Assembly (NCBI GenBank): GCA_964187785.1
Contig: OZ076409.1
Location: 34,784,001 to 34,844,000, forward strand
From: Amphiscolops sp. MND2022
Lineage: Eukaryota
Direction: 5' to 3'
DNA length: 60,000 nucleotides
Below are positions 13,401-31,221 of the stretch, piece after piece. Under the pieces are notes generated by a model. The model was not told where the DNA came from, made no database searches, and saw nothing but the letters and a program-made list of their open reading frames with translations. Position numbers and translations under genes: made by a program. The first letter of the stretch is position 1. Each line of letters starts with the position of its first letter.

Positions 13401-16400
13401 ATTGTTGATTATTTCCAGCATTTTAACTTTTCAATTGTCTTTAACTCTCAAAATGACTCACTTTAGTGTACTTCCATAGGGGATAAGTTCTGTTGGTTTG
13501 AAAAATTGTTGATTATGTCCAGCATTTTGGTTTTTTATTTTTCTTTAACTCTCAAAATGACTCACTTTAGTGTAATTCCAAAGGTGATAAGTTCTGTCGT
13601 TTCTAAAAATTGTTGAATATTTCCAGCATTTTGACTTTTCAATTGTCTTTAACTCTCAAAATGGCTTACTTTAGTGTACTTCCATAGGGGATAAGTTCTG
13701 TCGGTTTGAAAAATTGGTGATTATGTCCAGCATTTTGCTTTTTTATTTTTCTTTAACTCTCAAAATGACTCATTTAGTGTAATTCCATAGGTGATAAGTT
13801 CTGTCGTTTCTAAAAATTGTTGAATATTTCCAGCATTTTAACTTTTCAATTGTCTTTAACTCTCAAAATGGCTTACTTTAGCGTACTTCCATAGGGGATA
13901 AATTCTCTCGGTTTGAAAAATTGTTGATTATGTCTAGCATTTTAACTTTTCAAAAGTCTTTAACTCAAAATGGCTTACTTCAGTAAACTTCCATAGGGGA
14001 TAAGTTCTGTCGGTTTGAAAAATTGTTGATTAGGTCCAGCATTTTAGTTTTTTATTTGTCTTTAACTCAAAATGGCTTACTTTAGTGTACTTCTATATGG
14101 AATAAGTTCTGTCGGTTAAAAAATTTTTGATTATGTCAAGCATTTTAGGTTTTTATTTGTCTTAACTCAAAATGGCTTACTTTAGTGTACTTCCACGGGA
14201 GATAAGTTCTCTCGGTTTGAAAAATTGTTGATTATTTTCAGCATTTTAACTTTTCAAATGTCTTTAACTCTCAAAATGGCTCATTTTAGTGTACTTCCAT
14301 AGGGGATGAGTTCTCTCGGTTTGAAAAATTGTTGAGTGTCAAGCATTTTAGGTTTTTATTTGTCTTTAACTCTCAAAATAGTTTACTTCAGTATACTTCC
14401 ATAGGGGATAAGTTCTGTCGGTTTGAAAAATTGGTGATTATGTCCAGCATTTTGGTTTTTTATTTTTCTTCAACTCTCAAAATGACTCACTTTAGTGTAA
14501 TTCCATAGGTGATAAGTTCTGTCGTTTCTAAAAATTGTTGAATATTTCCAGCATTTTAACTTTTCAATTGTCTTTAACTCTCAAAATGGCTTACTTTAGC
14601 GTACTTCCATAGGGGATAAATTCTCTCGGTTTGAAAAATTGTTGATTATATCTAGCATTTTAACTTTTCAAAAGTCTTTAACTCAAAATGGCTTACTTCA
14701 GTAAACTTCCATAGGAGATAAGTTCTGTCGGTTTGAAAAATTGTTGATTAGGTCCAGCATTTTAGTTTTTTATTTGTCTTTAACTCAAAATGGCTTACTT
14801 TAGTGTACTTCTATATGGAATAAGTTCTGTCGGTTAAAAAATTGTTGATTATGTCAAGCATTTTAGGTTTTGATTTGTCTTAACTCAAAATGGCTTACTT
14901 TAGTGTACTTCCACGGGAGATAAGTTCTCTCGGTTTGAAAAATTGTTGATTATTTTCAGCATTTTAACTTTTCAAATGTCTTTAACTCTCAAAATGGCTC
15001 ATTTTAGTGTACTTCCATAGGGGATGAGTTCTGTCGGTTTGAAAAATTGTTGATGATGTCCAGCAATTTAACTTTTCAAATGTCTTTTACTCTCAAAATG
15101 GTTTACTTCAGTATTCTTCCATAGGGGATAAGTCCTCTCGGCTTGAAAATTTGTTGATTATTTCCAGCATTTTAACTTTTCAAATGTCTTTAACTCTCAA
15201 AATGGCTTATTTTAGTGTATTTACATAGGGGATAAGTTCTGTTGGTTTGAAAAATTGTTGATTATGTCCAACATTTTAGTTTTTTATTTGTCTTTAACTC
15301 TCAAAATCGTTTACTTTAGTGTACTTCTATATGGAATAAGTTCTCTCGGTTTGAAAAATTGTTGATTATTTCCAGCATTTTAACTTTTCAATTGTCTTTA
15401 ACTCTCAAAATGGCTTACTTCAGTATTCTTCCATAGGGGATCAGTCCTCTCGGTTTGAAAAATTGTTGATTATGTCCAGCAATTTAACTTTTCAAATGTC
15501 TACTCTCAAAATGGCTTACTTTAGTGTACTTCCATAGGGGATAAGTTCTCTCGGTTTGAAAAATTGTTGATTATTTCCAGCATTTTAACTTTTCAAATGT
15601 CTTTAACTCTCAAAATGGCCTATTTTAGTGTACTTCCATGGGGGATAAGTTCTGTCGGTTTGAAAAATTGTTGAATATGTCCAGCAATTTAACTTTTCAA
15701 ATGTCTAACTCTCAAAATGGCTTACTTCAGTATTCTTCCATAGGGGATAAGTCCTCTCGGTTTGAAAATTTGTTGATTATTTCCAGCATTTTAACTTTTC
15801 AAATGTCTTTAACTCTCAAAATGGCTTATTTTAGTGTATTTACATAGGGGATAAGTTCTGTCGGTTCGAAAAATTGTTGATTATGTCCAGCAATTTAACT
15901 TTTCAAATGTCTTCTCTCAAATTGGCTTACTTTAGTGTACTTCCATAGGGAATAAGTTCTCTCGGTTTGAAAAATTGTTGATTATTTCCAGCATTTTAAC
16001 TTTTCAAATGTCTTTAACTCTCAAAATGGCTTACTTCAGTATACTTCCATAGGGGATAAGTTCTGTCGGTTTCAAAATTTGTTGATTAGGTCCAGCATTT
16101 TAGTTTTTTGGTTTAAACTCTCAAAATGGCTTACTTTAGTGTACTTCCATAGGGGATAAGTTCTCTCGGTTTGAAAAATTGATTATTTCCAGCATTTTAA
16201 CTTTTCAAATGTCTTTAACTCTCAAAATCGCCTACTTTAGTGTACTTCCATAGGGGATAAGTTCTCTCGGTTTGAAAAATTGTTGAATATGTCAAGCATT
16301 TTAGCTTTTCAAATGTCTTTAACTCAAAATGGCTGACTTCAGTATACTTCCATAGGGGATAAGCTCTGTCGGTTTGAAAAATTGTTGAATATGTCCAGCA

Positions 16401-16710
16401 TTTTGGTTTTTTGTTTTTAACTCTCAAAATGACTCACTTTAGTGTACTTCCATAGGTGATAAGTTCTGTCGTTTCTAAAAGTTGTTGATTATTTCCAGCA
16501 TTTCAACTTGTCAATTGTCTTTAACTCTCAAAATGGCTTACTTTAGTGTACTTCCATAGGGGATAAGTTCTGTCGGTTTGAAAAATAATTGATTATGTCC
16601 AGCATTTTAGTTTTTATTTGTTTTTAACTCAAAATGGCTTTCCATGGGGGATAAGTTCTGAAAAATTGATTATATCCAGCATTTTAGTTTTTTTAAATGT
16701 CTAACTCTCC
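10469..16710. repeat. Satellite array, ~104-bp monomer, about 60 copies, with higher-order repeats
   Basis: Monomer about CTTCCATAGGGGATAAGTTCTCTCGGTTTGAAAAATTGTTGATTATTTCCAGCATTTTAACTTTTCAAATGTCTTTAACTCTCAAAATGGCTTACTTTAGTGTA; diagnostic variants recur at about 415, 623, 718 and 1133 bp. Confidence 0.95.
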
Positions 16711-16748
16711 AAAGGTATTCGTTTCGAGTAATTTTTTAAGGGACCTGC

Positions 16749-17194
16749 TGTAATATTCTTTGAATATTAGAAGGTATTAAATTTTGTGATTTTGTGAAGC
16801 TAATTAATAAACCCTCACTGATTAATTTGACCCCAAGTTGGAGCTATGAATATTTAATCTTAATAAAACAACCCACCCCGGAATGCAAATAGTAATTTCA
16901 AGAACAATGAAAAAGCAATAAAAATATATTACGACCCACCCTCTAAATACATACATGGGCAGTTTTTAATAAAAAATATATTGGTTAATTTCCGCATGAC
17001 AGGAAACAATAAAGTGAAGAAAATAAAACATTGATGACAATAATTTGAAGACAAGAAATTTTGGGCTTCTATTGAATAGTTGACTGTAAAGCATCGACAA
17101 TAAAATCTTTTCTGTAAAGCCTTCCTCACGCCCCGCTCTGAAGAAACCTAAAGCAAAAGAGATCTCAAAATTGGAAAACCCCAAGAATTTTACA
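16749..17194 (+). repeat. 5' LTR
   Basis: TGTAATATTC...TTTTACA; matches 27110-27555 apart from about 5 substitutions; AATAAA motifs inside. Confidence 0.97.
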
Positions 17195-17208
17195 TGGTGA
17201 CAAGGAGG
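17195..17208 (+). promoter_or_regulatory. Primer-binding site
   Basis: TGGTGACAAGGAGG directly after the LTR CA; TGG is complementary to the tRNA 3' CCA. The primer tRNA is uncertain (resembles Ser(GCT)-type PBSs). Confidence 0.75.
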
Positions 17209-17224
17209 AAGTGAGGAAAAGACA

Positions 17225-18394
17225 ATGGCAGCTGCAAACCCTCAACCACACATCACACTCAACCCATTCCGCGGAAAACCAGATGAAAATTGGCCAGATT
17301 TCGAGAGTCTACTCAGAAGCTTGATCAATGTTGGAAACATCCCAGCGGCAAACCGACCACAATTCCTGCAACTACACCTACTAGACCAAGCCCTACAATT
17401 CTTTAGAACATTACCACAAGCTACAAGAGATAACTTCGATGCAGCTATTACAGCTCTGCGCAACCACTATTGTAACCCAAATCTTCGAGAATTACACAAA
17501 CTACAACTACATAACTTGAAATTTGATCACAAAACTGGTAGCCCAGAAGACTTCCTCGTACAAGTGCAAATCAAAGCAACACAAGCCTATCCTGACCCAG
17601 TGTTTGCACCTATTCCACCAGCTAACCCACCAAATGACCAAGCTGAAATTGACAGAGTTGCAGCAACAGAAGCAGCGAATCAGACTGTTTTGGACAATGC
17701 GACAAATGAAAGAAACAGAAGGATAAAAGAAATCTTCACAAACTCAATGCCAAACTTCATTAAAAGAAAACTTTTGGATCAAAATGAAGCAGCAACAGTT
17801 CAAGACTTGTGCACTGTGGCTCGAAGGCAAATGGTGTTCTTTGAGCTGTGCCCGAGTGACGATTGGTCCAGAGACGCATTCAACGAAGTGAGTACAACGC
17901 TCTCAGAAAACTTGGTTAGTGCGTTAACTAAATTAACTCAACAACAGGATGAAATCAAACAACACCAAACTGAAATGTCAAACAGAATCAACACATTCAG
18001 CTCTCAAGACATGGGTAACCAGAATTACAACAACGACAATAATCAGAACAGAAACTCTAACTACAGAGGTAACAACAGATACAATAACTCGAGAGGATAT
18101 AGAGGAAGAGGAAACTTCAATCGAGGAAACAACAGAGGAAGAGGTAGATATAACAACAACAGAGGGTACTATGGCAACTACAACAATAACAGAGGTTACC
18201 AAAACAACTATGGTAACAACAACCCACAGCTACAACAGTCATCTAATGATGGACATATTGAAGAGACCAGTTACTCGAAAAATGTATGTTACAACTGTGG
18301 ATACCCAAACCACTACGCCAAAGATTGTATTCAACGTCAACCAGCACAGAGAAACCAGCAAATTCCATATCAAACAGCACCAAAAAACGAGTAG
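17225..18394 (+). CDS. gag: Gag polyprotein (389 aa)
   Basis: ATG ORF after the PBS; N-terminal PFRGKPDENWPDF retrotransposon-gag motif; Asn/Arg/Gly-rich region; CCHC knuckle CYNCGYPNHYAKDC. Confidence 0.93.
   Translation: MAAANPQPHITLNPFRGKPDENWPDFESLLRSLINVGNIPAANRPQFLQLHLLDQALQFFRTLPQATRDNFDAAITALRNHYCNPNLRELHKLQLHNLKFDHKTGSPEDFLVQVQIKATQAYPDPVFAPIPPANPPNDQAEIDRVAATEAANQTVLDNATNERNRRIKEIFTNSMPNFIKRKLLDQNEAATVQDLCTVARRQMVFFELCPSDDWSRDAFNEVSTTLSENLVSALTKLTQQQDEIKQHQTEMSNRINTFSSQDMGNQNYNNDNNQNRNSNYRGNNRYNNSRGYRGRGNFNRGNNRGRGRYNNNRGYYGNYNNNRGYQNNYGNNNPQLQQSSNDGHIEETSYSKNVCYNCGYPNHYAKDCIQRQPAQRNQQIPYQTAPKNE
18382..18388 (+). promoter_or_regulatory. Probable -1 programmed ribosomal frameshift site (gag-pol)
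   Basis: A AAA AAC heptamer in the X XXY YYZ register of the gag frame, one codon before the gag stop; the protease ORF is in the -1 frame. No stimulatory structure identified by eye. Confidence 0.8.
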
Positions 18395-19627
18395 AGCCAC
18401 GCCAGTATGAAGACAAAACGGAAGAAACGACACAAAGAGAGGACCACCAAATTACTGCATGCATATCCCTTGAGGGTGATATTCTATCCTATGTACCACT
18501 AAAATTTTCCTCTAAAGAAACAAGAAAAGCTCTGATTGACACTGGAGCCTGTGCAAATGCCATCAGTGAACATGACTTTGAAGACTTGAAATCTTCTTGT
18601 GGAAATATCTCGCAACTCACTACACCAAAACAGGTCAGTAAAGTGAAATTAGCTTCCGGACAACTTATACCTGTGCGTGGCCAAATAGAACTCCAATTTT
18701 CCATTGCAAATCATTCCTTTAGGGAAACATTTCTTGTCCTGCCCAATACAAACAGTATTATTTTGGGAAACCCTTTTTTCAAAAAAAAACTCTGTAGAAC
18801 TATACCCAAAAGAAAACTTGATGAAACTTCCAGACCTGACATTACAATTGAATGAAATGGACAAACTTGAGAAAACTACAAAAGCCCAGTACTCAATCAG
18901 AACGGTCGAGAAAACAACGATTGCCCCGAACCAACAAACAATTTTAAAATGCGTGTTACTCTCCAAAAATTAATTATCGGAACTTTGCGGGATAGTCGAA
19001 CCGAAAACTAGTTTCGAGGAAAAAACGGGTTTGTGCATAACCTCATCCCTTTCGAAAGTTGACTCCTCAGGTCACCTATTCATTTCTGCATTGAACCTTC
19101 AAGAAAATGAAGTCACGATACCTCGAAATTCAGACATAGCTCTTTAAATTTCTCTCACCCCAACAAGCTGAAACCTTAACACCAATTGACCCTCAATTAC
19201 TGACTTTAGCAAAATTCAAAAACCCAGATGATTTCGTCACTGAAATAAACCAATTGGTAATAGATCAAACTTTTAACTCAGAATCGCAACCTCCCAGACC
19301 TCAACCAGACTACAAAAGTTTTTGGTTCCAGACCCCTGAAACTTGTCGAAATACGGAAAAACTCCGAGGAGTGGAAAAAAGGATTTATGAGGAACTATTG
19401 AAGCTCCAAGAGTTAGATAAAATAGACCCACAAATGGACGCTAGCTACCGTGAAACATTCCTCCAAAGATTCCAATGGAAAGACTCAGTACTGAATCGAC
19501 ATCAAAAACAACAACTAGAAGAGCTACTGATTGAATTCTCGGATATATTTGCCAAACATAGATTTGACGTCGGTTATAATTCGGAAATAACAATGAAATT
19601 GACTCCTGAACATGATAAACCTGTCCA
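18388..19627 (+). pseudogene. pol: 5' part of pol: aspartic protease and linker, disrupted
   Basis: ALIDTGA and ILGNPF protease motifs. Frameshifts at the A9 run (18781-18789), at about 19143 and at about 19627, plus an in-frame TAA at 18971-18973. The segments join into one plausible polyprotein. Confidence 0.85.
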
Positions 19628-22600
19628 CGCAAAGCCCACCGACACCAATACACTTACGAGAGGAACTACAGGTTGAACTTGCACTTTTACAATATTTTGG
19701 AATTATCACCAGCCTCAACCATTCAAAATATAGCAGTCCAATTTTCGCACACCGTAAAACTAATGGAGAACTTCGAATCCTAGTAGACCTACGCCGTATC
19801 AACCATTTACTTCTTCATGATTATCACAACAATAACTTTCCAATCTCAACAATGGCAGACACAACTGCTCATTTTGCCGGAAAGAAACTGTTTTGCAAAC
19901 TTGATTGCTCTCAGGCCTACCATTGTGTACAAATGGCAGACCCACTCTCGGTACAAGTATTGGCATTCAACTTTGCTTCACGAACCCTAGCCTATCAGCG
20001 ATTAGCGAGAGGATTGAACCGATCTGTAACTGGATTCAGTGCTTTTGTGAGAAACTATTTGGAACCATGCCTCTCAGCAAATGTGTGTACACAATTCATG
20101 GACGACATCGGATGTGGAGTCGAATCACCGGAACAACTCCTACCATACCTCAGACAAATATTCCAATGTCTCAGACGCTCAGGACTCAAATTATCCCCAG
20201 AAAAGTGTGTATTTGGTTCTGAACAAGTGAGTTTTCTTGGAAATGTGATTACCAAAGAAGGCCTAAAACCAGAAAAAGAAAAAATAGAGAAATTCTTGAA
20301 AACACTGGAGATTCCAAAATCTGTTAAACAAGTAAAAAGACTGATAGGTTTCCTTCAGTTTTTCAGAAACTTCATCCCAAATTTGAATGAGCATCTCATA
20401 CCATTCTATAAACTACTGCGGAAAAATGTGGCTTTTGAAGTGACAGAAGAAATACTGGATTCGTTTGAAACCTTGAAGGAGAAACTCAAAACAACTGCAA
20501 CGCAAACACTACGATTGGCAAAACCAGGACTACAATATGTAATTTTGTGTGACGCAAGTTACCACTCGAGCGGATTCGTACTCATGATCGAAGACTATGT
20601 CAAAAATGGGAAAGGTGAAGATGTAAAGTCATACGCACCAGTCTCATTTGGATCGAAAGTCTTCAACACAGCTCAGTTGAAAATGTCAATCTACTGCAAA
20701 GAATTCCTGTCACTATATTTTGCCCTGGAAACCTTCTCACACTTCATATGGGGTAGCGAAAAACCTGTACTGATACTGACAGATAACAAGAGCCTCACAC
20801 GCTTCTTTCAAGCAAAGACAATTCCTCCAGCACTTTGGAACTATGTCGACAGAGTAACCACATTCAACATAGTAGTCGCTCATATTCCCGGAAAAACAAA
20901 CGCAGCAGCGGATTTTTTATCTCGCCTGCAAACAAACCCAAACGAAACAGTAGAATTAAAACTTACAGACCGTATTCCGGTACGCGAAATAGAGATTGAT
21001 ATTCGAGCTAAATTACCAGACAATACAATAAATGAACTGTTCTCTGAAGAATTCCCCGATAACCTACTTCAAGTGGTTGATATGAACACATTAATAACAT
21101 TGAAACAATCTGGAAACTTTGAGAATGCCTCACAACACCTAAAAGCCCTGGCAACCCAAAATGAAGAAATCCAATTGACCAGATACAAACCAGCACTCCC
21201 GATCAACGCACTACAACTACAAAACCCGATGGACAATTATCCAGAACTTGAGACATCGGTGGCAATTCTAGAAAGGGAACAACAAAATGACGCCTTACTC
21301 TCGAAGGTGACAACCTGGCTTACAAAAGGTACAGAACCACCACATAATATTTATTCATCAGGAGAAGAACAGAAATATCGGAAACAACTCCCGCGATTAA
21401 CTATAAACAATGGAATCCTTAAACGGAACTATTACGATCATGACGGTACTATCCTTTATAAACAAGTATGTGTACCCAAACACATGCTAAAAGAAATCCT
21501 CTATAGAATACATAACTCACCCACAGGAGGACATTTGGGAATAACGAGAACAATTGCCGAGTTTCGTAGACGCTTTTACTGCCCGAATTACATAGAACAA
21601 ATTGCAAGCTACATCAGAAACTGCTCAACCTGTTTACAACTCAAACTTGTCCAACCATCTCGACTCAAACCTCCGCTAAGCGAACTATCTTCAAAAACAT
21701 CCTTCCCCGGCGACATAATGCAGATCGATATTCAAGGAGCATTTCCCTCATCTCCGTATAAATATGTGCTCACAGCAATTGATGTCTTTTCCAAATACCT
21801 TTTTGCGGTACCCTTGACCACAATAAGTGCGTCATCAGTAGCTGCAGCATTGGCCTCAATTATGTTCAATCACAGCTTTATACCAAAAGAAATAATATCG
21901 GACCTTGGAACACAATTTGTCTCAGAACTTTTTAGTGAACTGACAAAGCTCCTGGAAATCAAAATTACACATGCCTCTCTTAAGCACCCACAGACAATTG
22001 GAGTAGTTGAACGATCACACGCAGCACTCACAAGAATACTCAAACTAAACAGTAATGATACGTTCACAAACTGGCATCGGTATGTACCTTTGGCGACTTT
22101 CATCCACAATACATCATACCATACTTCTATTGGATGCGCACCAACAGTACTCTTCCACGGCAGAGAACCAATGAAACCGCTGGATCTCAGATTCTACAGC
22201 ACATGTATCCAAAAGGCAGCTTTCAATTACGACTTTGTGGAATCTTTACGAGATGAAATGTTAAAGAAATTCTCCAAAACAAAAGAGAGTCTCGAAAAGT
22301 CTTTCGCACGATACCGCAGGTATTATGATCAGAAAGCACGTGCAAACCCATTACAACAACACCAGTTTTGCCTCCTACTAAACCCTAAACTGACGGAACA
22401 ATCTACCTTCAGCTCCAAATTAATACAAAAATGGCATGCACTTTATAGAGTGGAAAAAGTATTGACAGACTCTAATTATCTTATTCGCAAAACTGGAACA
22501 AACTACACACAGATTGTGCATAGAATCAGGATCAGACCTATTACACCACAATACCAAGTTGAAGACATTCCCGAAATAGACCCTGCAAATTTTAGAACGG

Positions 22601-23640
22601 ACCCATCACTGGGACATAACAGAGGAGACACAGATTACTTCGACAGAGGCTACCCATCATTACTACAAGATGACACACCTGTTGAGTCTGTTCAACCGAC
22701 AACATTTGATAGCCCAGTAAGAGTTTCAATTTCATTCGGACAGAGCAATCAGGCCCAACAACACCTACCACCACCTATACCACCAGCGATAAACCCCAAT
22801 ACCGCGAATGAGAACCACACCATAGTAGAACCGGACCATACGAGGATACGACTAACACCCCCAGTCAACCTGACTGCAGACATACCGGAAACTTCCGACA
22901 GTTCGGATGAAAACCCTGAAACAATACAACCCGTGCGCAGATCAGAAAGAATAGCCACACAACCTCAACCAAACTTTAAACTGATTGAAGCTGCGGGAAG
23001 ACAATTGAAAACCCCAAACCCCATAAAACGGACATCACAAGAAACTAAAGAAGCACGTAACTTTATTGATCTACTCAAAAACCGCAGATTAGAACGCCAG
23101 CAAATGCAATTTGTCCAAAGACCTGGATCTCAACAAGAAGGACCGAATGAAAAAAGATCACGCCCAGACATCAATGAAATATGTCAGACAAGAAACAATG
23201 TCAACATAGTCTATGACAACATCTTCTGTTCGTCCTCTAGTATGGCACACTGCGTGTCTTCGGACTTTGCAATGGGGGTAGGTATAGCCAACCAGTTTGA
23301 CAGGCTATACCCCCGAATAAAAACACAATCATCGAAGAACCTTGCTCCTGGTTCAGTTTTTGCATACTATGACAAGTATTCCCGACGATGGATATACAAC
23401 TTGGTGACGAAACGAAAATTTTTCGACAAGCCTTCAATTGCATCACTGCGTTCAAGCCTTCTACTGATGCGTGACCATGCTCAACGGTATGGAGTAGATA
23501 ATATCCGATTACCCAAACTTGGATGTGGAAGAGACAAACTCCTATGGCAACAAGTACGCAACCTCTTGATAGAAGTCTTCCAACACACGAATTTGACGAT
23601 AACCGTTTGTGTACTTCCTCACAGAGCACCCTACGCCTAA
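19612..23640 (+). CDS. pol: Pol: reverse transcriptase, RNase H, integrase and C-terminal macrodomain (uninterrupted)
   Basis: RT: LVDLRRIN, KLDCSQAY, FMDD (20095-20106). RNase H: ILCDAS, KEFL, TDNKSL, ADFLSR. Integrase: HNSPTGGH...CSTC zinc finger and D (QIDIQG), D (ISDLG), E (VERSH). The listed ATG is not the true start; Pol would be made as a Gag-Pol fusion. Confidence 0.95.
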   Translation: MINLSTQSPPTPIHLREELQVELALLQYFGIITSLNHSKYSSPIFAHRKTNGELRILVDLRRINHLLLHDYHNNNFPISTMADTTAHFAGKKLFCKLDCSQAYHCVQMADPLSVQVLAFNFASRTLAYQRLARGLNRSVTGFSAFVRNYLEPCLSANVCTQFMDDIGCGVESPEQLLPYLRQIFQCLRRSGLKLSPEKCVFGSEQVSFLGNVITKEGLKPEKEKIEKFLKTLEIPKSVKQVKRLIGFLQFFRNFIPNLNEHLIPFYKLLRKNVAFEVTEEILDSFETLKEKLKTTATQTLRLAKPGLQYVILCDASYHSSGFVLMIEDYVKNGKGEDVKSYAPVSFGSKVFNTAQLKMSIYCKEFLSLYFALETFSHFIWGSEKPVLILTDNKSLTRFFQAKTIPPALWNYVDRVTTFNIVVAHIPGKTNAAADFLSRLQTNPNETVELKLTDRIPVREIEIDIRAKLPDNTINELFSEEFPDNLLQVVDMNTLITLKQSGNFENASQHLKALATQNEEIQLTRYKPALPINALQLQNPMDNYPELETSVAILEREQQNDALLSKVTTWLTKGTEPPHNIYSSGEEQKYRKQLPRLTINNGILKRNYYDHDGTILYKQVCVPKHMLKEILYRIHNSPTGGHLGITRTIAEFRRRFYCPNYIEQIASYIRNCSTCLQLKLVQPSRLKPPLSELSSKTSFPGDIMQIDIQGAFPSSPYKYVLTAIDVFSKYLFAVPLTTISASSVAAALASIMFNHSFIPKEIISDLGTQFVSELFSELTKLLEIKITHASLKHPQTIGVVERSHAALTRILKLNSNDTFTNWHRYVPLATFIHNTSYHTSIGCAPTVLFHGREPMKPLDLRFYSTCIQKAAFNYDFVESLRDEMLKKFSKTKESLEKSFARYRRYYDQKARANPLQQHQFCLLLNPKLTEQSTFSSKLIQKWHALYRVEKVLTDSNYLIRKTGTNYTQIVHRIRIRPITPQYQVEDIPEIDPANFRTDPSLGHNRGDTDYFDRGYPSLLQDDTPVESVQPTTFDSPVRVSISFGQSNQAQQHLPPPIPPAINPNTANENHTIVEPDHTRIRLTPPVNLTADIPETSDSSDENPETIQPVRRSERIATQPQPNFKLIEAAGRQLKTPNPIKRTSQETKEARNFIDLLKNRRLERQQMQFVQRPGSQQEGPNEKRSRPDINEICQTRNNVNIVYDNIFCSSSSMAHCVSSDFAMGVGIANQFDRLYPRIKTQSSKNLAPGSVFAYYDKYSRRWIYNLVTKRKFFDKPSIASLRSSLLLMRDHAQRYGVDNIRLPKLGCGRDKLLWQQVRNLLIEVFQHTNLTITVCVLPHRAPYA
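23194..23637 (+). other. TARG1/OARD1-like (Poa1p-type) macrodomain at the Pol C-terminus
   Basis: MAHCVSSDFAMGVGIANQF...WIYNLVTK...KPS...LPKLGCGRDKLLWQQVRNLLIEVF...ITV matches the TARG1 motifs AHCIS-D--MGAGIA, IYYLITK, KPT and MPRIGCGLDRLQW. Catalytic-position Lys at 23410 and Asp at 23533. Confidence 0.9.
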
Positions 23641-23899
23641 TGACGGACCACCAACCTTCCCATACCAGACACCCGTAAGTTAACATTAACCAACACTACC
23701 AACCAACCGAATTTACCCTTGAAAACCGTGAAAAATCTATGTTCCTTCACTTTCGCAACCTGCAAAAAACCCCGGAAAACCCATGGATTGAAAAATTTCT
23801 GCAGAAAAACTTCAAGGACAGGTCCTTAGACAAGCCACTATTCGAAAAATGAGCAGAGAATAGACTATTTCGACATACGACATTCAGCATTGACCACAT

Positions 23900-24535
23900 T
23901 TTGACACTGCGAGCATAGAAAAATGACATGTTAACCATACAAAAAACACACCGATGGACACCTTAGAAGTTCATCTACAAGATTGGGTATCTATTGTCCC
24001 TTCAAAAAGCATTGCTGACCTATAAATACCCTATTTGACAAGAAAATCCTATCTGACCCTATGATAAAAATTGACAGTTTGCCACTGCGACTGAGAAAAC
24101 GAGGCAAGATGCCTACACGGAAAATACCTTGACAGACACCCCTAAATGGGTACTACACGATAGGGTGATAGAAAAAGCGCGCAAAAGCAAAATTATATAA
24201 GAAAAACTCCATACTCCCATTTACAATTTTTTTTTCGACCTCAGTAAGTTTCCACGAAAACGACAATTTTGCCACTGCGACTGGCTAAGTGGAAGCAAAC
24301 ATCAGTGCATATTGGGCTTCCCCGGATTGTCCTCCATGAGAACTACACTACAGGGTGATAGCGGATGCGCTCATCCACCAGAGAAAAAAATAAGTGTTTA
24401 AAAAAGGAAAAAAAAATCCTACATTAGCAGAAAATTCCGATTTTGCCACTGCGAACTTATGCACGGACATCATCATCAACACCAAATTTACGTCAGATAA
24501 CTAGCATGACCTAACCCCTAGCCGATAGGGCATAC
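23900..24535. repeat. Four-unit array of two conserved boxes flanking fixed-length unique spacers
   Basis: Box 1 TTTG(C/A)CACTGCGA at 23900, 24078, 24268, 24442. Box 2 CTACAAGATTGGG / CTACACGATAGGG / CTACACTACAGGG / CTAGCCGATAGGG at 23975, 24153, 24343, 24518. Spacers of 62, 62, 62 and 63 nt look unrelated. Confidence 0.8.
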
Positions 24536-24576
24536 GACAAAACACTACTAAAGTATGAAAAGGACATCACTAACCA

Positions 24577-25443
24577 TTATCTTGGCTGCACTCTTCTGCG
24601 TGCTGAAAATCGCTTCTTCGTGACCCCGGACCTCTTGTTCCTTTTACCTTGTACGACTCGGGAACGTTGGTCAGAATACCTGTTGAAAAACTTCGTCTCC
24701 ATCTTAGCGGCTTCCTCCTCTTCGTGTAAAATAGTGTGACTCAGAAGACAGTTCCAATCATTACTAGGAGTTACAGAGAGAACTAAATGCACAGTCCTTG
24801 CAGGGAAACAAACTGTATCACCGGGTTCCTGAACACAGTACGACAGATCTTTAAAACGTCCGTAGACCATATCTTCAATAAACTGTTGGAAATGACTGTC
24901 CTCGGGCCTTTTAACCAAAACTGCAGCGGACTTAGACCCGGGACTAGCGAAAACCCATAGTTTCCGCCCGCGGAGTAATGAAGCCACAATTTCTGTTGGC
25001 GGACTGTCTGCGTGAAACCCTGTCAGACAATTTCCGGTACTTAATAACAGAACAGGCTCATGAACAACTTGTAGGTCAACAATGGCACTATTGAACCAAC
25101 TGGCGATATCATTGACATTCTCTTTTGGCATGAGGGCAGTTAAAAGCCTTGTGTCAGGGAACTGCACATTCTTCTTCTCCTCACCCCAGTTCTTGAATGA
25201 ACGCAAAATTTCGCCTACCTCAGTGGAATTCAGAATAAGCGACTGTAACTCAGGCTGTTTGTATGAGCAGGCAACACCTCTAACGATGCAAGCAGTTTTG
25301 AACCTACATGCTTCGCTGAGTGATACTGCCTCCACTTCTTTACAGTGACTTTGACACAATTCTAACAACAAATTAAAATTGTCCATGTTATCTGAAAAAA
25401 GTCCATGACCATTAACGTTAAACCCATGGGCCTTCAACAACAT
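24577..25443 (-). CDS. JmjC-domain Fe(II)/2-oxoglutarate oxygenase (histone demethylase/hydroxylase-like), antisense cargo gene, 288 aa
   Basis: Intact ATG ORF. LTGFHAD gives T141, H144 and D146; LLRGRKLWVF gives K161; QEPGDTVCFPARTVHLV gives H219. The T(-3)/H/D(+2)/K(+17) spacing is the same as in KDM2/KDM7/JMJD6-type JmjC domains. Basic C-terminus KRNKRSGVTKKRFSARRR. Confidence 0.88.
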   Translation of the reverse strand: MLLKAHGFNVNGHGLFSDNMDNFNLLLELCQSHCKEVEAVSLSEACRFKTACIVRGVACSYKQPELQSLILNSTEVGEILRSFKNWGEEKKNVQFPDTRLLTALMPKENVNDIASWFNSAIVDLQVVHEPVLLLSTGNCLTGFHADSPPTEIVASLLRGRKLWVFASPGSKSAAVLVKRPEDSHFQQFIEDMVYGRFKDLSYCVQEPGDTVCFPARTVHLVLSVTPSNDWNCLLSHTILHEEEEAAKMETKFFNRYSDQRSRVVQGKRNKRSGVTKKRFSARRRVQPR

Positions 25444-25556
25444 TGTACAAAATAAAAAGGTGTCACGGGATGGATAAAGCTAACTAAACAATTAATACCA
25501 GTACAGAGGAAAGACTAGAAATAACTCTAAGTGAGCTGAGTTGCGAATCGCTGAGT

Positions 25557-25961
25557 TTACGATTGATTTACTCTGTTGCGCACAAATTTGAACAGCACCC
25601 TCCCGATTACGAAGAGAATTGAACTAGCTATGCCAATGCCGACAACGAATATTGGCCATCCACCCTGTTCTCTCATGACTTCTCTGGACTGAACTGCAGA
25701 TGAAGTAATGACACCACATTTCGGATCAACCACAGGAGAGAAACTGACTTTTTTGGAATCCACTAGGACAGTTGTTCCGTCGTTGCAACACTCCAACTCA
25801 ATATTTGAAGTCAAGGAAATCTTGTAACAATCCATGCTCTGAAAGAACTCGAACAACATTTTGGCAAAGTTCAGATTTTGGCAGAGTTCAACATTTTGGC
25901 AGATAGCCTGGCAATAAAACAACAGTAAACAAAGAGACGCCACCCACGCTTGGGTCAACAA
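25557..25961 (-). CDS. Small putative single-pass membrane protein, antisense cargo
   Basis: Cys-containing N-terminal region, hydrophobic segment WPIFVVGIGIASSILFVIG, short basic tail RVLFKFVRNRVNQS. The ORF opens on TTG just after a stop; the true start (internal ATG or a spliced exon) is unknown. Confidence 0.5.
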   Translation of the reverse strand: MLTQAWVASLCLLLFYCQAICQNVELCQNLNFAKMLFEFFQSMDCYKISLTSNIELECCNDGTTVLVDSKKVSFSPVVDPKCGVITSSAVQSREVMREQGGWPIFVVGIGIASSILFVIGRVLFKFVRNRVNQS

Positions 25962-26322
25962 AACAATTCAATTAAAATGGAAATTGAAAATTTCCGGACG
26001 AGTACATTCTAATGAGGCCAGATTATTAACCTTCAGGTTGAACAATGACAAATAATAAAACAACGTCTATTTAATAAAAATCTTCCATGGTTGCGGAAAC
26101 TATTTGCTTGAATTTAATAACCAAGACGCTGACAAGACTGCTGAAAATTTATTGATTCTACATTGGGTACCAACGACCCCATTCCTCCTGAAATTTACTT
26201 GAAATTCAGCCGGTAGCAGAAGTCACCCAAAACATTCAACATTCTGAATATTCAACAAATTCCAAAGAGCCCTAACCTACATATATGAAATGACAACTTT
26301 GACTCACAGTAATTAACCCAAA

Positions 26323-26658
26323 ATGTCTACATCACAAGGCCTGACAGTGAGAGTTACACTAGTGCCCATGAAAATCATCTTTCCGACACCTTTTAAATGG
26401 ACTCCGCCGCGACAGCTACAGCCAATCTTTATCCATACCATTCAAACTCAACAATGTGGATGCTGTGCACCCCTTTTTATTAAAGCGACAACAGAAAACA
26501 CGAGCACCTTCAGTATCATGGACATTGACGAAGAAACACCAGAATTTGAGGACCTCTTTCACTCACTCCAAACATTAACAAAGACTATGAAAGGACAACA
26601 GCCTCTGAAAAAGGAACTCCTTGACCTCTTGGACTACATGGAGATTGAGCTATCCTAA
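26323..26658 (+). CDS. Hypothetical 111-aa protein inside the retrotransposon
   Basis: ATG in good context (AAAATGT); CGCC motif; acidic, helical-looking C-terminus; no family recognised. Confidence 0.35.
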   Translation: MSTSQGLTVRVTLVPMKIIFPTPFKWTPPRQLQPIFIHTIQTQQCGCCAPLFIKATTENTSTFSIMDIDEETPEFEDLFHSLQTLTKTMKGQQPLKKELLDLLDYMEIELS

Positions 26659-26708
26659 TACTGTTAGTACAATACTTTAAAATTGTGAGACCTAGACTTC
26701 AGCCCACA

Positions 26709-27032
26709 ATGCTCTCGTTATTTATCTTTATTCACATAGCTCAGGCTACTAGCCGCCAAGGCAGTTTGGACAAGGGCAATTTATTTAAAGAAGAAACCAA
26801 AATCATGCAGATAGAAAAATTTAGTAATGTCCAATTTTTGCTCCCTATCCCACGCTTTATTGTGATGGTGGAAGATCATTATCTGGAAGAATTGGAAAAT
26901 GACGAAAAATTTCCGTGGAGAAACAACAGTTTGCTGATTCCAGAATCTCAACTAAAAGAAACACGAAACCCTGAGCCCGATGCCCCAATCTACTCACAAC
27001 TCAATAGACAACTACGAACAGGTCAAATTTGA
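26709..27032 (+). CDS. Short secreted-type ORF at the env position, possibly a truncated env-like remnant
   Basis: ATG at 26709 starts a signal-peptide-like MLSLFIFIHIAQATS; lies just upstream of the purine tract and 3' LTR; no transmembrane anchor, and too short for a functional Env. Confidence 0.35.
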   Translation: MLSLFIFIHIAQATSRQGSLDKGNLFKEETKIMQIEKFSNVQFLLPIPRFIVMVEDHYLEELENDEKFPWRNNSLLIPESQLKETRNPEPDAPIYSQLNRQLRTGQI

Positions 27033-27084
27033 AAAGAAAAAAAATACTAACTTTATCGACGTTTTGATGAACATTTTAACCGGC

Positions 27085-27109
27085 GAGTGAAAGAATCAAA
27101 GTCGGGTAG
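27085..27109 (+). promoter_or_regulatory. Polypurine-tract region
   Basis: Purine-rich GAGTGAAAGAATCAAAGTCGGGTAG immediately before the 3' LTR (imperfect). Confidence 0.55.
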
Positions 27110-27555
27110 TGTAATATTCTTTGAATATTAGAAGGTATTAAATTTTGTGATTTTGTGAAGCTAATTAATAAACCCTCACTGATTAATTTGACCCCAAGTT
27201 GGAGCTATGAATATTTAATCTTAATAAAACAACCCACCCCGGAATGCAAATAGTAATTTCACGAACAATGAAAAAGCAATAAAAATATATTACGACCCAC
27301 CCTCTAAATACATACATGGGCAGTTTTTAATAAAAAATATATTGGTTAATTTCCGCATGACAGGAAACAATAAAGTGAAGAAAATAAAACATTGATGACA
27401 ATAATTTGAAGACAAGAAATTTTGGGCTTCTATTGAATAGTTGACTGTAAAGCATCGACAATAAAATCTTTTCTGTAAAGCCTTCCTCACGCCCCGCTCT
27501 GAAGAAACCTAAAGCAAAAGAGATCTCAAAATTGGAAAACTCCTAAACTTTTACA
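27110..27555 (+). repeat. 3' LTR
   Basis: 446-bp copy of the 5' LTR, followed by TSD CCTGC. Confidence 0.97.
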
Positions 27556-28245
27556 CCTGCTATGTTCGATTGAAAAAATATCGCTTATTTGCGGCATTTT
27601 GATGAATAGTTTGTCTTTGTCCTATAAAATGGTTTTGTTTAGTATTTTTCAGTTTTTATTGATTATTCTTTCGGTTCCTTGTGCAAATTTTGTCTTCCTC
27701 TGATTTGCTATTTGGTAATTTCACTACTCCCATGATGTAGACACACAATGTACTGGGTAAGACGGGCCTAACCCAGCCTGCACAGTACGAGTGTCTACTG
27801 GGTTCTTAGTATTGGTTGACCTCTCTTGAAGCAGGTAGACCGTTACAGCTCTACTCTTCAAGAATCGGGTTGAGGTTAACCCTAGACTCCAGTAGACACT
27901 CAAAATCTCTTGCACAAGTACTGATTCGATTCGATTCCAATCTTCACTTTTCTTCCCTCTTCGATTTAAATACCTCTACACTGACTATATGGCGGTATCA
28001 CATGTAAATTGTACAATTTCTCTACGTGGTATGGAATTACTGCAATAATGTTTTAATCAATTGTTCTTGAAATTAACTAGCTTGCTCCGTCATTATTTTT
28101 TACTTTTGCTGACTTCTCTTTTGTCTTGGAAATAGTTTTTCTGGCTAATGTTTTTTTGCTTCTGAAAGGGTATAAAAGCAGAAATAGTCGTGTGCCCCGG
28201 AGGGGCCTATTTTCAAATGAGGTAGAAACTGTACAAACTCTGTAC

Positions 28246-30510
28246 TTTTTATTTTTCTTTAACTCTCAAAATGACTCACTTTAGTGTAATTCCATAGGTG
28301 ATAAGTTCTGTCGTTTCTAAAAATTGTTGAATATTTCCAGCATTTTAACTTTTCAATTGTCTTTAACTCTCAAAATGGCTTACTTTAGCGTACTTCCATA
28401 GGGGATAAATTCTCTCGGTTTGAAAAATTGTTGATTATATCTAGCATTTTAACTTTTCAAAAGTCTTTAACTCAAAATGGCTTACTTCAGTAAACTTCCA
28501 TAGGGGATAAGTTCTGTCGGTTTGAAAAATTGTTGATTAGGTCCAGCATTTTAGTTTTTTATTTGTCTTTAACTCAAAATGGCTTACTTTAGTGTACTTC
28601 TATATGGAATAAGTTCTGTCGGTTAAAAAATTGTTGATTATGTCAAGCATTTTAGGTTTTTATTTGTCTTAACTCAAAATGGCTTACTTTAGTGTACTTC
28701 CACGGGAGATAAGTTCTCTCGGTTTGAAAAATTGTTGATTATTTTCAGCATTTTAACTTTTCAAATGTCTTTAACTCTCAAAATGGCTCATTTTAGTGTA
28801 CTTCCATAGGGGATGAGTTCTGTCGGTTTGAAAAATTGTTGATGATGTCCAGCAATTTAACTTTTCAAATGTCTTTTACTCTCAAAATGGTTCACTTCAG
28901 TATTCTTCCATAGGGGATAAGTCCTCTCGGCTTGAAAATTTGTTGATTATTTCCAGCATTTTAACTTTTCAAATGTCTTTAACTCTCAAAATGGCTTATT
29001 TTAGTGTATTTACATAGGGGATAAGTTCTGTTGGTTTGAAAAATTGTTGATTATGTCCAACATTTTAGTTTCTTTGTCTTTAACTCTCAAAATCGTTTAC
29101 TTTAGTGTACTTCTATATGGAATAAGTTCTCTCGGTTTGAAAAATTGTTGATTATTTCCAGCATTTTAACTTTTCAATTGTCTTTAACTCTCAAAATGGC
29201 TTACTTCAGTATTCTTCCATAGGGGATAAGTCCTCTCGGTTTGAAAAATTGTTGATTATGTCCAGCAATTTAACTTTTCAAATGTCTTCTACTCTCAAAA
29301 TGGCTTACTTTAGTGTACTTCCATAGGGGATAAGTTCTCTCGGTTTGAAAAATTGTTGATTATTTCCAGCATTTTAACTTTTCAAATGTCTTTAACTCTC
29401 AAAATGGCCTATTTTAGTGTACTTCCATGGGGGATAAGTTCTGTCGGTTTGAAAAATTGTTGAATATGTCCAGCAATTTAACTTTTCAAATGTCTAACTC
29501 TCAAAATGGCTTACTTCAGTATTCTTCCATAGGGGATAAGTCCTCTCGGTTTGAAAATTTGTTGATTATTTCCAGCATTTTAACTTTTCAAATGTCTTTA
29601 ACTCTCAAAATGGCTTATTTTAGTGTATTTACATAGGGGATAAGTTCTGTCGGTTCGAAAAATTGTTGATTATGTCCAGCAATTTAACTTTTCAAATGTC
29701 TTCTACTCTCAAATTGGCTTACTTTAGTGTACTTCCATAGGGGATAAGTTCTCTCGGTTTGAAAAATTGTTGATTATTTCCAGCATTTTAACTTTTCAAA
29801 TGTCTTTAACTCTCAAAATGACCTATTTTAGTGTACTTCCATGGGGGATAAGTTCTGTCGGTTTGAAAAATTGTTGAATATGTCCAGCAATTTAAGTTTT
29901 CAAATGTCTTTAACTCTCAAAATGGCTTACTTCAGTATACTTCCATAGGGGATAAGTTCTGTCGGTTTCAAAATTTGTTGATTAGGTCCAGCATTTTAGT
30001 TTTTTGGTTTAAACTCAAAATGGCTTACTTTAGTGTACTTCCATAGGGGATAAGTTCTCTCGGTTTGAAAAATTGTTGAATATGTCAAGCATTTTAGCTT
30101 TTCAAATGTCTTTAACTCAAAATGGCTGACTTCAGTATACTTCCATAGGGGATAAGCTCTGTCGGTTTGAAAAATTGTTGAATATGTCCAGCATTTTGGT
30201 TTTTTGTTTTTAACTCTCAAAATGACTCACTTTAGTGTACTTCCATAGGTGATAAGTTCTGTCGTTTCTAAAAGTTGTTGATTATTTCCAGCATTTCAAC
30301 TTTTCAATTGATTTTAACTCTCAAAATGGCTTACTTTAGTGTACTTCCATAGGGGATAAGTTCTGTCGGTTTGAAAAATAATTGATTATGTCCAGCATTT
30401 TAGTTTTTATTTGTTTTTAACTCAAAATGGCTTTCCATGGGGGATAAGTTCTGAAAAATTGATTATATCCAGCATTTTAGTTTTTTTAATGTCTAACTCT
30501 CCAAAGGTAT
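28246..30510. repeat. Second block of the ~104-bp satellite (about 22 monomers)
   Basis: Same monomer as 10469-16710. Confidence 0.95.
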
Positions 30511-31221
30511 TCGTTTCGAGTAATTTTTTAAGGGACCTGCTATGTTCGATTGAAAAAATATCGCTTATTTGCGGCATTTTGATGAATAGTTTGTCCTTGT
30601 CTTATAAAATGGTTTTGTTTAGTATTTTTCAGTTTTTATTGATTATTCTCTCGGTTCCTTGTGCAAATTTTGTCTTCCTCTGATTTGCTATTTGGTAATT
30701 TCACTACTCCCATGATGTAGACACACAATGTACTGGGTAAGACGGGCCTAACCCAGCCTGCACAGTACGAGTGTCTACTGGGTTCTTAGTATTGGTTGAC
30801 CTCTCTTGAAGCAGGTAGACCGTTACAGCTCTACACTTCAAGAATCGGGTTGAGGTTAACCCTAGACTCCAGTAGACACTCAAAATCTCTTGCACAAGTA
30901 CTGATTCGATTCGATTCCAATCTTCACTTTTCTTCCCTCTTCGATTTAAATACCTCTACACTGACTATATGGCGGTATCACATGTAAATTGTACAATTTC
31001 TCTACGTGGTATGGAATTACTGCAATAATGTTTTAATCAATTGTTCTTGAAATTAACTAGCTTGCTCCTTCATTATTTTTTACTTTTGCTGACTTCTCTT
31101 TTGTCTTGGAAATAGTTTTTCTGGCTAATGTTTTTTTGCTTCTGAAAGGGTATAAAAGCAGAAATAATCGTGTGCCCCCGGAGGGGCCTATTTTCAAATG
31201 AGGTAGAATCTGTACAAACTC
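28246..31221 (+). repeat. Segmental duplicate of ~14456-16748 plus 27561-28240, lacking the retrotransposon
   Basis: Largely the same order of satellite variants, then AGGGACCTGCTATGTTCG with a single CCTGC (30536-30540), then the ~680-bp unique tail duplicated almost exactly. Confidence 0.92.

What the first reader, a model, noticed from the sequence alone, without database searches (positions are those of the whole stretch)
23194..27032. Gypsy retrotransposon carrying a candidate counter-silencing module (macrodomain + JmjC oxygenase + fixed-spacer array)
Seen: between near-identical LTRs with a clean TSD, one element has a TARG1-type macrodomain fused to integrase, an intact antisense JmjC gene, a structured four-unit array between them, and small membrane/secreted ORFs. 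Known: both enzyme families can erase modifications (TARG1 removes ADP-ribose; many JmjC proteins remove methyl-lysine), and LTR elements are normally silenced through histone methylation. Inference: the element encodes its own chromatin or defence-evasion toolkit, possibly aimed at its own sequence by the array. I am not aware of this combination as a described Gypsy architecture, but I could not search.
Basis: partly seen in the sequence, partly recalled or inferred. Interest (0 to 1): 0.88.

Follow-up and report, generated by a model that had tools for sequence, protein, structure and literature searches.

The report
Retroelements carrying antisense JmjC enzyme genes
An envelope-type jumping gene in an animal genome carries, on its opposite strand, its own well-preserved gene for an enzyme built like histone demethylases, and related genes ride in many unrelated jumping-gene families of the same genome, which suggests, but does not prove, that these elements edit the chromatin marks used to silence them.

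Summary
The observation largely holds. A young Gypsy element (16749-27555; LTRs 441/446 identical, 5-bp TSD) has a TARG1-like macrodomain on integrase, an antisense JmjC gene with intact iron and 2OG ligands, and a four-unit array. Corrections: the 'secreted ORF' is an internally deleted env; the array does not fold better than shuffles; and the three parts are not one module (JmjC in 3 of 14 other macro-Gypsy loci; JmjC without macro elsewhere). The finding is larger than one element. JmjC occurs as four old alleles, synonymously saturated and under purifying selection, swapped among 95-98% identical backbones. Homologues sit in about 14 Gypsy and BEL/Pao families of this genome, antisense in 32 of 32 LTR contexts, with the H-D/E-H triad kept in 21 of 21 representatives. 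Closest solved relatives are KDM7/PHF8/KDM2; FIH is nearly tied by fold. Three unrelated families have arrays of different motifs with the same geometry (about 70-74 nt between motifs, 169-197 nt period), which suggests nucleosome-phased binding sites. Best reading: an element-encoded nuclear oxygenase that probably erases repressive lysine methylation (about 45%). Substrate, expression and targeting are untested. Ten literature searches found no JmjC-carrying LTR element.

The parts
16749..17194 (+). 5' LTR (TG...CA), preceded by TSD CCTGC at 16744-16748
   Evidence: 441/446 identical to the 3' LTR
17195..17212 (+). primer-binding site (starts TGG); cognate tRNA not identified
   Evidence: position and TGG start
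17225..18394 (+). gag with CCHC zinc knuckle
   Evidence: PF00098 E 8e-5
18262..19676 (+). aspartic protease and PR-RT linker; reading frame interrupted in this copy
   Evidence: PF13650 E 1.6e-5
19603..23640 (+). pol open frame: RT, RNase H, integrase, low-complexity linker, macrodomain
23197..23637 (+). TARG1/OARD1-like macrodomain fused to the integrase end; residues matching TARG1 K84 (codon at 23410) and D125 (23533) kept
   Evidence: dyad described in PMC7050489
23900..24530 (.). four-unit array: motif 1 at 23900, 24078, 24268, 24442; motif 2 at 23975, 24153, 24343, 24518; 62-nt inner spacers only 16-28 of 62 identical between the four units; period 178, 190, 174
24577..25443 (-). intronless antisense JmjC oxygenase gene (288 aa from the first Met; the Met at residue 20 aligns with the start of the other alleles); T141, H144, D146, K161, H219; Lys/Arg-rich C-terminal tail
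24455..25825 (.). exchangeable cassette (last array unit, JmjC, most of the membrane ORF): about 41-78% identical per 100-nt bin between alleles while flanks are mostly 80-100%
25557..25967 (-). antisense small membrane-protein ORF (hydrophobic N-terminus, Cys-Cys...Cys ectodomain, one TM segment); homologues precede env in most env-Gypsy families here
26323..26658 (+). 111-aa sense ORF of unknown kind, no hydrophobic segment, kept in sister copies, weak purifying signal
26709..27032 (+). env remnant: signal-like start joined in frame to the cytoplasmic tail; about 1.9 kb missing at 26858/26863
27093..27109 (+). purine-rich tract before the 3' LTR
27110..27555 (+). 3' LTR, followed by TSD CCTGC at 27556-27560
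30536..30540 (+). empty target site in the next copy of the host tandem unit, flanked by 104-bp satellite blocks (10469-16640, 28256-30433)

Best explanation
This is a complex, env-type Gypsy element whose pol-env interval is an accessory slot read from the minus strand of the integrated copy. Shown: the slot holds a JmjC Fe(II)/2-oxoglutarate oxygenase gene that is kept by selection, exchanged as a cassette between copies, and shared with BEL/Pao elements. Inferred: the protein is nuclear (basic tail), derives from a KDM2/7-type demethylase stripped of its reader domains, and removes repressive methyl-lysine marks (H3K9me1/2 or H3K27me1/2, as KDM7 enzymes do; recalled) so that copies stay transcribable. 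Lacking a DNA-binding domain it would act in trans or be recruited by another factor. The array is most likely a cis-acting DNA element: pairs of binding sites about seven helical turns apart, repeated at nucleosome spacing. The macrodomain is a separate, more widespread acquisition that travels with integrase and removes ADP-ribose from element proteins or nucleic-acid ends (inferred from TARG1 activity).
For: Catalytic residues: H-D/E-H in 21 of 21 LTR-borne representatives and the 2OG lysine in 20 of 21, at about 20% overall identity. Selection: between alleles pS 0.74-0.86 against pN 0.19-0.29 (dN/dS 0.07-0.08 in the 4 correctable pairs), while the neighbouring macrodomain has pS at most 0.09 in the same copies; codon-model likelihood gain 2dlnL = 390 over the model with the ratio fixed at 1. 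Kinship: a profile of 24 homologues hits only KDM7A/PHF8/PHF2 among solved structures, best E 2e-7; the model (pLDDT 85) aligns best to PHF2, KDM2A, PHF8 and ceKDM7A, Z 14.9-13.9 over 217-239 residues, rmsd 3.9-5.9. Spread: antisense to pol in 29 of 29 LTR contexts and 3 of 3 more; one origin for the Gypsy-borne copies is rejected at p-AU 0.02. Array geometry: spacing 73-74 nt in 37 of 39 units of this family, 69-70 in the L049 family, periods 169-197, inner segment GC 0.43-0.45 against 0.31-0.35 between units in three families. The insertion lies beside satellite blocks. Precedents for TE-borne erasers and anti-silencers: PMC9289625, PMC12730594, PMC5735166.
Against: No activity, substrate or localisation was tested. 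FIH scores Z 13.8, about 1 below the best row, and Foldseek ranks JMJD5 first by E-value, so a non-histone hydroxylase is not excluded. Pfam finds only the JmjC domain, below its curated cut-off (20.6 against 24 bits), with no PHD, CXXC or JHD domain. KDM2 is as close as KDM7 and acts on an active mark (recalled); PHF8 was reported to help silence retrotransposons in mouse cells (abstract of PMC10349869). Eleven of 14 other macro-Gypsy loci have no JmjC, so it is dispensable for the group. The JmjC frame is interrupted in 3 of 11 family copies. Long branches weaken the tree test, and on the integrase tree JmjC-less elements form one clade, so a single loss also fits within Gypsy. Selection on the macrodomain is not demonstrable within the family (2dlnL 2.6).
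Confidence: 0.45

Rival explanations
1. The enzyme is an active accessory oxygenase, but its substrate is not a histone lysine: it hydroxylates or demethylates a host restriction or small-RNA-pathway protein, an element protein, or RNA, as JMJD5, JMJD6 and FIH do.
For: It is JmjC-only and small like JMJD5 and FIH; Foldseek ranks JMJD5 first (E 1e-9); FIH Z 13.8 is close to the KDM rows; Atlas neighbours are unnamed JmjC-only clusters. All selection and catalytic-residue evidence fits equally.
Against: The sequence profile finds only KDM7/PHF8/PHF2 and none of JMJD5, JMJD6 or FIH at E<=0.01; TM-scores by query length are higher for KDM2A and PHF2 (0.55, 0.53) than for JMJD5 (0.40-0.48).
Confidence: 0.3
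2. The antisense gene restrains the element: the enzyme removes an active mark (KDM2-like, H3K36me2) or the antisense RNA dampens sense transcription, giving latency control like antisense genes of complex retroviruses.
For: Strict antisense orientation in 32 of 32 LTR contexts; KDM2A ties with KDM7 structurally; antisense regulatory ORFs between pol and the 3' LTR are described for Retand and HTLV (passages of PMC11963269).
Against: Antisense placement is also what an inserted gene needs to avoid cutting short the genomic RNA (inference). Repeated sharing between superfamilies is easier to explain by a gain in activity.
Confidence: 0.12
3. The array is not a DNA element but a set of about 90-nt small RNA genes or 3'-UTR RNA elements with fixed ends and a variable middle.
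For: Units are GC-richer than the A/T-tract linkers; some units can pair a motif with the adjacent spacer (p<0.05 in 2 of 8 units for each arm); the array lies in the shared 3' region of pol and JmjC.
Against: No unit folds better than shuffles on either strand; no Rfam match; motifs do not match the upstream elements of host U6 or U2 genes or, by eye, the A/B-box consensus (recalled); spacer length is held while its sequence is not.
Confidence: 0.3
4. The JmjC ORF is a transduced host fragment carried passively.
For: Among young copies of one allele the few changes are near neutral (dN/dS 0.19-1.15 on 2-8 changes), and 3 of 11 copies are interrupted.
Against: Synonymous saturation with 62-73% protein identity between alleles, the triad in 21 of 21 families' representatives, and presence in about 14 families.
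Confidence: 0.03

Closest known systems
Env-carrying Ty3/Gypsy errantiviruses with F-type env (PMC13524379; passages read)
   Same: LTR-gag-pol-env layout; sister env frames have a hydrophobic start, an R-x-K/R-R site at 129, a hydrophobic peptide at 132-155 and a TM segment at 629-650.
   Different: A 3-kb accessory region with antisense genes; the paper's main text has 0 occurrences of 'macro', 'demethylase', 'antisense' or 'accessory'. F-type fold not tested here.
KDM7A / PHF8 / PHF2 and KDM2A JmjC lysine demethylases
   Same: Fold, Fe ligands H-x-D...H, 2OG Thr and Lys; best sequence-profile and Z-score matches.
   Different: 13-15% structural identity; no PHD, CXXC or JHD domain; intronless, 270-290 aa, basic tail; activity unknown.
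TARG1/OARD1 (ALC1-like macrodomain); macro-domain ORFs in fish epsilon-like ERVs (PMC4977317, passages)
   Same: E 2e-23 to TARG1 with the Lys/Asp dyad kept; macrodomains as retroelement cargo are on record.
   Different: Here fused to Gypsy integrase, and to gag-protease in non-autonomous elements.
VANDAL/VANC sequence-specific anti-silencing (PMC5735166; abstract and one section read)
   Same: Element-encoded candidate anti-silencer plus family-specific short motifs repeated in non-coding DNA.
   Different: VANC binds its motifs directly; this protein is an enzyme with no detected DNA-binding domain, most JmjC families have no array, and VANC arrays are ordinary tandem repeats, not two motifs at fixed spacing around unrelated sequence.
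Orchid Gypsy AlkB m6A demethylase (PMC9289625) and fungal TET/JBP DNA transposons (PMC12730594); passages read
   Same: A 2OG oxygenase eraser carried as an extra TE gene; TET genes move between transposon lineages.
   Different: Different enzyme families and substrates (RNA m6A, DNA 5mC); not JmjC; not shared between Gypsy and BEL/Pao.
Plant Retand elements (PMC11963269, passages) and bdelloid shared ORF3s (PMC5408684, abstract)
   Same: Antisense extra ORFs and family-specific arrays between pol and the 3' LTR; enzymatic ORFs shared between unrelated retroelements.
   Different: Their cargo is TRP28, GDSL esterase or DEDDy exonuclease; Retand repeat units are 8-100 bp simple tandem repeats.

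Membership tests
Ty3/Gypsy LTR retrotransposon | LTR pair TG...CA with short TSD, PBS and PPT | tested here: met
Ty3/Gypsy LTR retrotransposon | domain order PR-RT-RNase H-IN | tested here: met
Errantivirus (env-carrying Gypsy) | env 3' of pol with signal peptide, furin site, fusion peptide and TM | tested here: met
   met for the family (3 of 10 sister copies with an uninterrupted frame of about 735-750 aa); the window copy holds only a remnant
Errantivirus (env-carrying Gypsy) | F-type or gB-type ectodomain fold; placement in the errantivirus pol tree | tested here: inconclusive
   no informative Pfam hit and no PDB sequence hit; not folded; no reference pol set in the tree
TARG1/ALC1-like macrodomain hydrolase | sequence kinship and Lys84/Asp125-type dyad | tested here: met
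   (9 of 10 copies tested; the tenth frame is interrupted)
TARG1/ALC1-like macrodomain hydrolase | hydrolysis of ADP-ribosyl esters | not testable with these tools
   needs an enzyme assay
JmjC oxygenase | double-stranded beta-helix fold with H-x-D/E...H and 2OG Lys | tested here: met
KDM2/KDM7 lysine demethylases | closer to KDM2/7 than to JmjC hydroxylases | tested here: inconclusive
   sequence profile says yes; Z 14.9 against 13.8 for FIH; Foldseek E-value favours JMJD5; no KDM2/7 reference in the tree
KDM2/KDM7 lysine demethylases | PHD or CXXC reader and C-terminal JHD helical domain | tested here: not met
   only JmjC in the 300-aa open frame; model tail 267-287 is disordered
KDM2/KDM7 lysine demethylases | demethylation of methyl-lysine on histone H3 | not testable with these tools
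   needs an enzyme assay
VANC-type sequence-specific anti-silencing | family-specific motifs repeated in non-coding element DNA | tested here: met
   three families, three motif sets; absent from most JmjC families
VANC-type sequence-specific anti-silencing | motif and encoded factor diverge together | tested here: inconclusive
   motifs differ between families with about 20% identical JmjC, but four alleles at 62-73% identity share one motif set
VANC-type sequence-specific anti-silencing | encoded protein binds the motif and removes silencing in trans | not testable with these tools
   needs ChIP/EMSA and chromatin profiling

The most novel reading that the evidence does not exclude
Animal LTR retroelements of two superfamilies share and trade a pool of minimal JmjC histone demethylases as an anti-heterochromatin accessory gene. 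In some families a nucleosome-phased array of family-specific sites next to the gene recruits or positions that activity on the element's own chromatin: an enzymatic, animal counterpart of VANDAL/VANC.
Probability: 0.15. Interest if true: 0.93.

Novelty: new variant of a known kind. Interest (0 to 1): 0.76.

Why it matters
How transposons resist chromatin silencing in animals is poorly known, and the precedents found are plant or fungal or act on DNA or RNA marks. Here a histone-demethylase-type gene is kept by selection in about 14 LTR families across Gypsy and BEL/Pao, always antisense, and old alleles are reshuffled among young copies. That gives a direct test: a 270-aa single-domain enzyme to assay, natural JmjC-plus and JmjC-minus sister clades to profile, and an array whose geometry predicts nucleosome phasing. 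It also shows that invertebrate env-Gypsy elements can be complex, with accessory genes like those of complex retroviruses. If the substrate is not a histone, it points to an unknown hydroxylation-dependent host defence.

Tried and rejected
Structured-RNA reading of the array: shuffle-controlled folding, Rfam and arm-pairing test (8 of 10 planned units ran) gave no consistent support. snRNA-type promoter: host U6 and U2 upstream sequences do not contain the motifs. Motif 1 as a general host element: 20 of the 23 matches outside the family were fetched and show no second motif or array. Helical-phase argument (periods near 177, 188, 197): too few independent values to test; left as a suggestion. 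Expression: no RNA holder was listed, so no reads were laid; this says nothing either way. Host KDM2/7 gene: only one JHD exon was located and a search for long relatives found none, so the donor is not shown and the trees have no KDM2/7 reference. The fitted dN/dS value could not be read from the codon-model output; only likelihood differences are used, and I take the fixed parameter to be dN/dS. The 111-aa ORF had no usable Atlas or Pfam hit. The env frame had no PDB sequence hit. No complex was predicted and the membrane protein was not folded. An earlier count said 4 LTR substitutions; the correct count is 5.
Full report
1. Observation. The element runs from 16749 to 27555. Its LTRs match at 441 of 446 bases, both ends carry the TSD CCTGC, and the next copy of the host tandem unit holds the empty site at 30536-30540. 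Pfam gives gag knuckle, protease, RT, RNase H and integrase in Gypsy order. This copy's frames are interrupted between about 18790 and 19680. The last 147 residues of pol match human TARG1/OARD1 at E 2e-23, and the residues aligned to Lys84 and Asp125 are kept (the dyad is described in passages of PMC7050489, which writes Glu125 where the PDB chain shows Asp). The minus-strand ORF 24577-25443 is a JmjC protein with T141, H144, D146, K161 and H219 and a basic tail. Between the two stop codons lie four units, each with two short motifs 73-74 nt apart around unrelated 62-nt spacers. This exceeds chance: 0 of 300 Markov controls reached the count, and the pattern has 32 genome matches against 0 for the reversed control.

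2. Corrections. The array is not demonstrably structured. The 'secreted ORF' is an env remnant: 7 of 10 sister copies have about 1.9 kb more at 26858/26863, 3 of these 7 with an uninterrupted frame of about 735-750 aa that has a hydrophobic start, furin-type site, fusion-peptide-like stretch and TM segment; the other 3 of 10 share the deletion. The family is therefore an env-carrying Gypsy of the kind surveyed in PMC13524379 (passages; supplements not read). The small antisense membrane ORF has homologues just upstream of env in most env-Gypsy families sampled, with three invariant cysteines across 13 sequences.

3. The cassette. Ten sister copies were fetched out of 16 DNA matches. Backbones are mostly 95-98% identical to the window, but between about 24455 and 25825 the copies fall into four alleles that are about 41-78% identical per 100-nt bin (the bin table used 6 of the 10 copies). 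Between alleles the JmjC proteins are 60-73% identical, with pS 0.74-0.86 and pN 0.19-0.29; the macrodomain in the same copies has pS at most 0.09. A codon model with a free ratio beats the fixed one by 2dlnL 390 for JmjC, 72 for the membrane ORF, 36 for env, 5.5 for the 111-aa ORF and 2.6 for the macrodomain. So old, selected JmjC alleles are being reshuffled among young backbones, most simply by template switching (inference). The frame is uninterrupted in 8 of 11 copies, and changes within an allele are few and near neutral, as expected after insertion.

4. Spread in the genome. The JmjC protein finds 131 matches among 150 scored of 446 candidates; the macrodomain fills all 150 scored of 971. 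Of 40 stretches fetched around distant JmjC hits, 29 hold JmjC with a Gypsy or BEL/Pao core match, and all 29 are antisense to it; 1 has no JmjC, 3 have no core match, 6 belong to DNA-transposon-like families and 1 to another element. Of 16 macrodomain loci chosen as controls, 14 are Gypsy pol fusions; 3 of the 14 have a JmjC, again antisense. By my grouping this is about 4 Gypsy and 10 BEL/Pao families. The iron triad is intact in 21 of 21 LTR-borne representatives and the 2OG lysine in 20 of 21. Gypsy-borne JmjC genes do not form one clade (p-AU 0.02, 9 rows against 14; host, database and unplaced rows left out; long-branch warning). On an integrase tree of 21 loci (L170 left out as a near-copy), JmjC-less elements form one clade, so within Gypsy an old slot with replacement or one loss is as good as repeated gain. 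Presence in both superfamilies still needs at least one transfer or parallel capture.

5. What the enzyme resembles. The single sequence hits PHF2 and PHF8 weakly (E 6e-4, 0.014). The 24-sequence profile hits only KDM7A, ceKDM7A, PHF8 and PHF2 (9 sequences, best 2e-7). The model has pLDDT 85. Foldseek ranks JMJD5 first by E-value but gives the higher query TM-scores to KDM2A and PHF2. Z-scores put 16 KDM2/7 entries first (14.9-13.9) and FIH next at 13.8. There is no reader domain. I therefore call it a JmjC oxygenase most like KDM2/7, not a member of that family.

6. The array. Of 18 pol-JmjC intervals scanned, five (three families: this one, the L049 Gypsy family, the L040 BEL family) have periodic motifs with 0 of 300 controls as high, one is borderline and 12 have none; none of the 16 macrodomain controls has one at k=7. 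Motif sequences differ between families, but the geometry recurs: usually four units, period 169-197 and mostly 173-179, two motifs 73-74 nt apart here (37 of 39 units), 69-70 in L049 (11 of 11), with a GC-richer inside and A/T-tract linkers (the second motif in the L040 family is weak and was chosen by eye). These lengths match a nucleosome repeat and half a nucleosome wrap (recalled values), so I favour a DNA-level element at about 50%, small-RNA or UTR elements at 30%, and a recombination scaffold for the rest. Nothing links the array physically to JmjC.

7. Mechanism. Shown: architecture, selection, catalytic residues, exchange, strict antisense orientation. Inferred: minus-strand expression from integrated DNA, nuclear entry, removal of repressive lysine methylation, benefit to the element. 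I put an active, selected oxygenase at about 85% and histone anti-silencing at 45%. Against it stand the near tie with FIH and JMJD5, the equal closeness of KDM2, and a report that PHF8 supports retrotransposon silencing (abstract of PMC10349869). The macrodomain is a separate and commoner passenger; its role against ADP-ribosylation is inferred from TARG1 alone.

8. Literature. Ten searches listed no paper describing a JmjC gene in an LTR element or a macrodomain fused to Gypsy integrase; listings were judged by title and abstract start. The library lacks most subscription journals and Repbase, so this is not proof of absence. Precedents for the kind: AlkB in orchid Gypsy (PMC9289625, passages), TET/JBP and SET in DNA transposons (PMC12730594, passages), VANC (PMC5735166, abstract and section 9), shared ORF3s in rotifers (PMC5408684, abstract), Retand antisense ORFs and arrays (PMC11963269, passages), macro ORFs in fish ERVs (PMC4977317, passages). 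A survey of chromatin-domain fusions with transposons (10.1101/2021.11.30.470311, passages and section 10) has no 'JmjC' in its main text; its supplementary tables were not seen and could list such cases. Earlier notes of this scan report a zinc-finger JmjC gene in fungal Gypsy elements; they are unchecked AI notes and were not tested, but would make the capture recurrent.

9. Verdict. A real feature and a new variant of a known kind: TE-borne chromatin or defence enzymes are known, but a selected, traded, always-antisense JmjC gene across two animal LTR superfamilies was not found in print by my searches. Interest 0.76.

Noticed in passing
L031/L032 (G000:C3:25.07-25.08 Mb), L033/L034: A BEL/Pao family carries its JmjC gene inside both long LTRs (repeat of 1614 nt at 98%), so each element has two copies and lone copies occur without pol nearby.
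   Followed up: partly
L164:6067-8574, L165:1518-4025: LTR elements (LTR pairs 99.8% and 99.7%) with one 836-aa gag-protease-macrodomain ORF and no RT or integrase hit in 10 kb; many of the top 150 macrodomain hits have frames of this length.
   Followed up: partly
L152-L157; 52 of the 62 PF02373 matches by frame length and score: Two multi-copy non-LTR-context families carry a JmjC closer to the Pfam model, next to a BRCT ORF and a long ORF that by eye resembles a RAG1/Transib-type transposase (recalled, no Pfam hit); 6 loci were seen in context.
   Followed up: partly
L163:4634-5083: JmjC ORF beside ORFs that look by eye like a tyrosine-recombinase element; Pfam gave no support.
   Followed up: no
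L166-L178, pol-env interval: JmjC-less env-Gypsy families carry other small conserved antisense ORFs in the same slot, one Cys/His-rich (weak PHD-variant hit, E 0.083), plus the same signal-Cys-TM protein.
   Followed up: partly
L043, between pol and JmjC: A possible fourth array: another motif pair 74 nt apart at intervals 357 and 178 (1 of 300 controls as high).
   Followed up: partly
window 24283 and 24454: Blast matches to other alleles end at or just after array motif 1, so the motifs may serve as crossover points for cassette exchange.
   Followed up: partly
window 17180-17187 against 27541-27548: Four of the five LTR differences cluster in 8 bases at the 3' end, which suggests a recombinant LTR pair, not accumulated age.
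   Followed up: no
window 26600-27032; 3 of 10 sister copies: The same env deletion recurs in other copies with differing JmjC alleles, so an env-less sub-lineage has been mobile.
   Followed up: partly
L179:3216-5957: A non-LTR element with RT and a PHD finger is inserted between pol and JmjC of a Gypsy copy.
   Followed up: no
window 10469-16640, 28256-30433 and 45916-52585: 104-bp satellite with about 415-bp higher-order repeat, and a separate 7-copy array of about 1025 bp.
   Followed up: no
L081-L090: Host U6 genes include tail-to-tail inverted pairs and share a short upstream element about 55 nt before the start.
   Followed up: no
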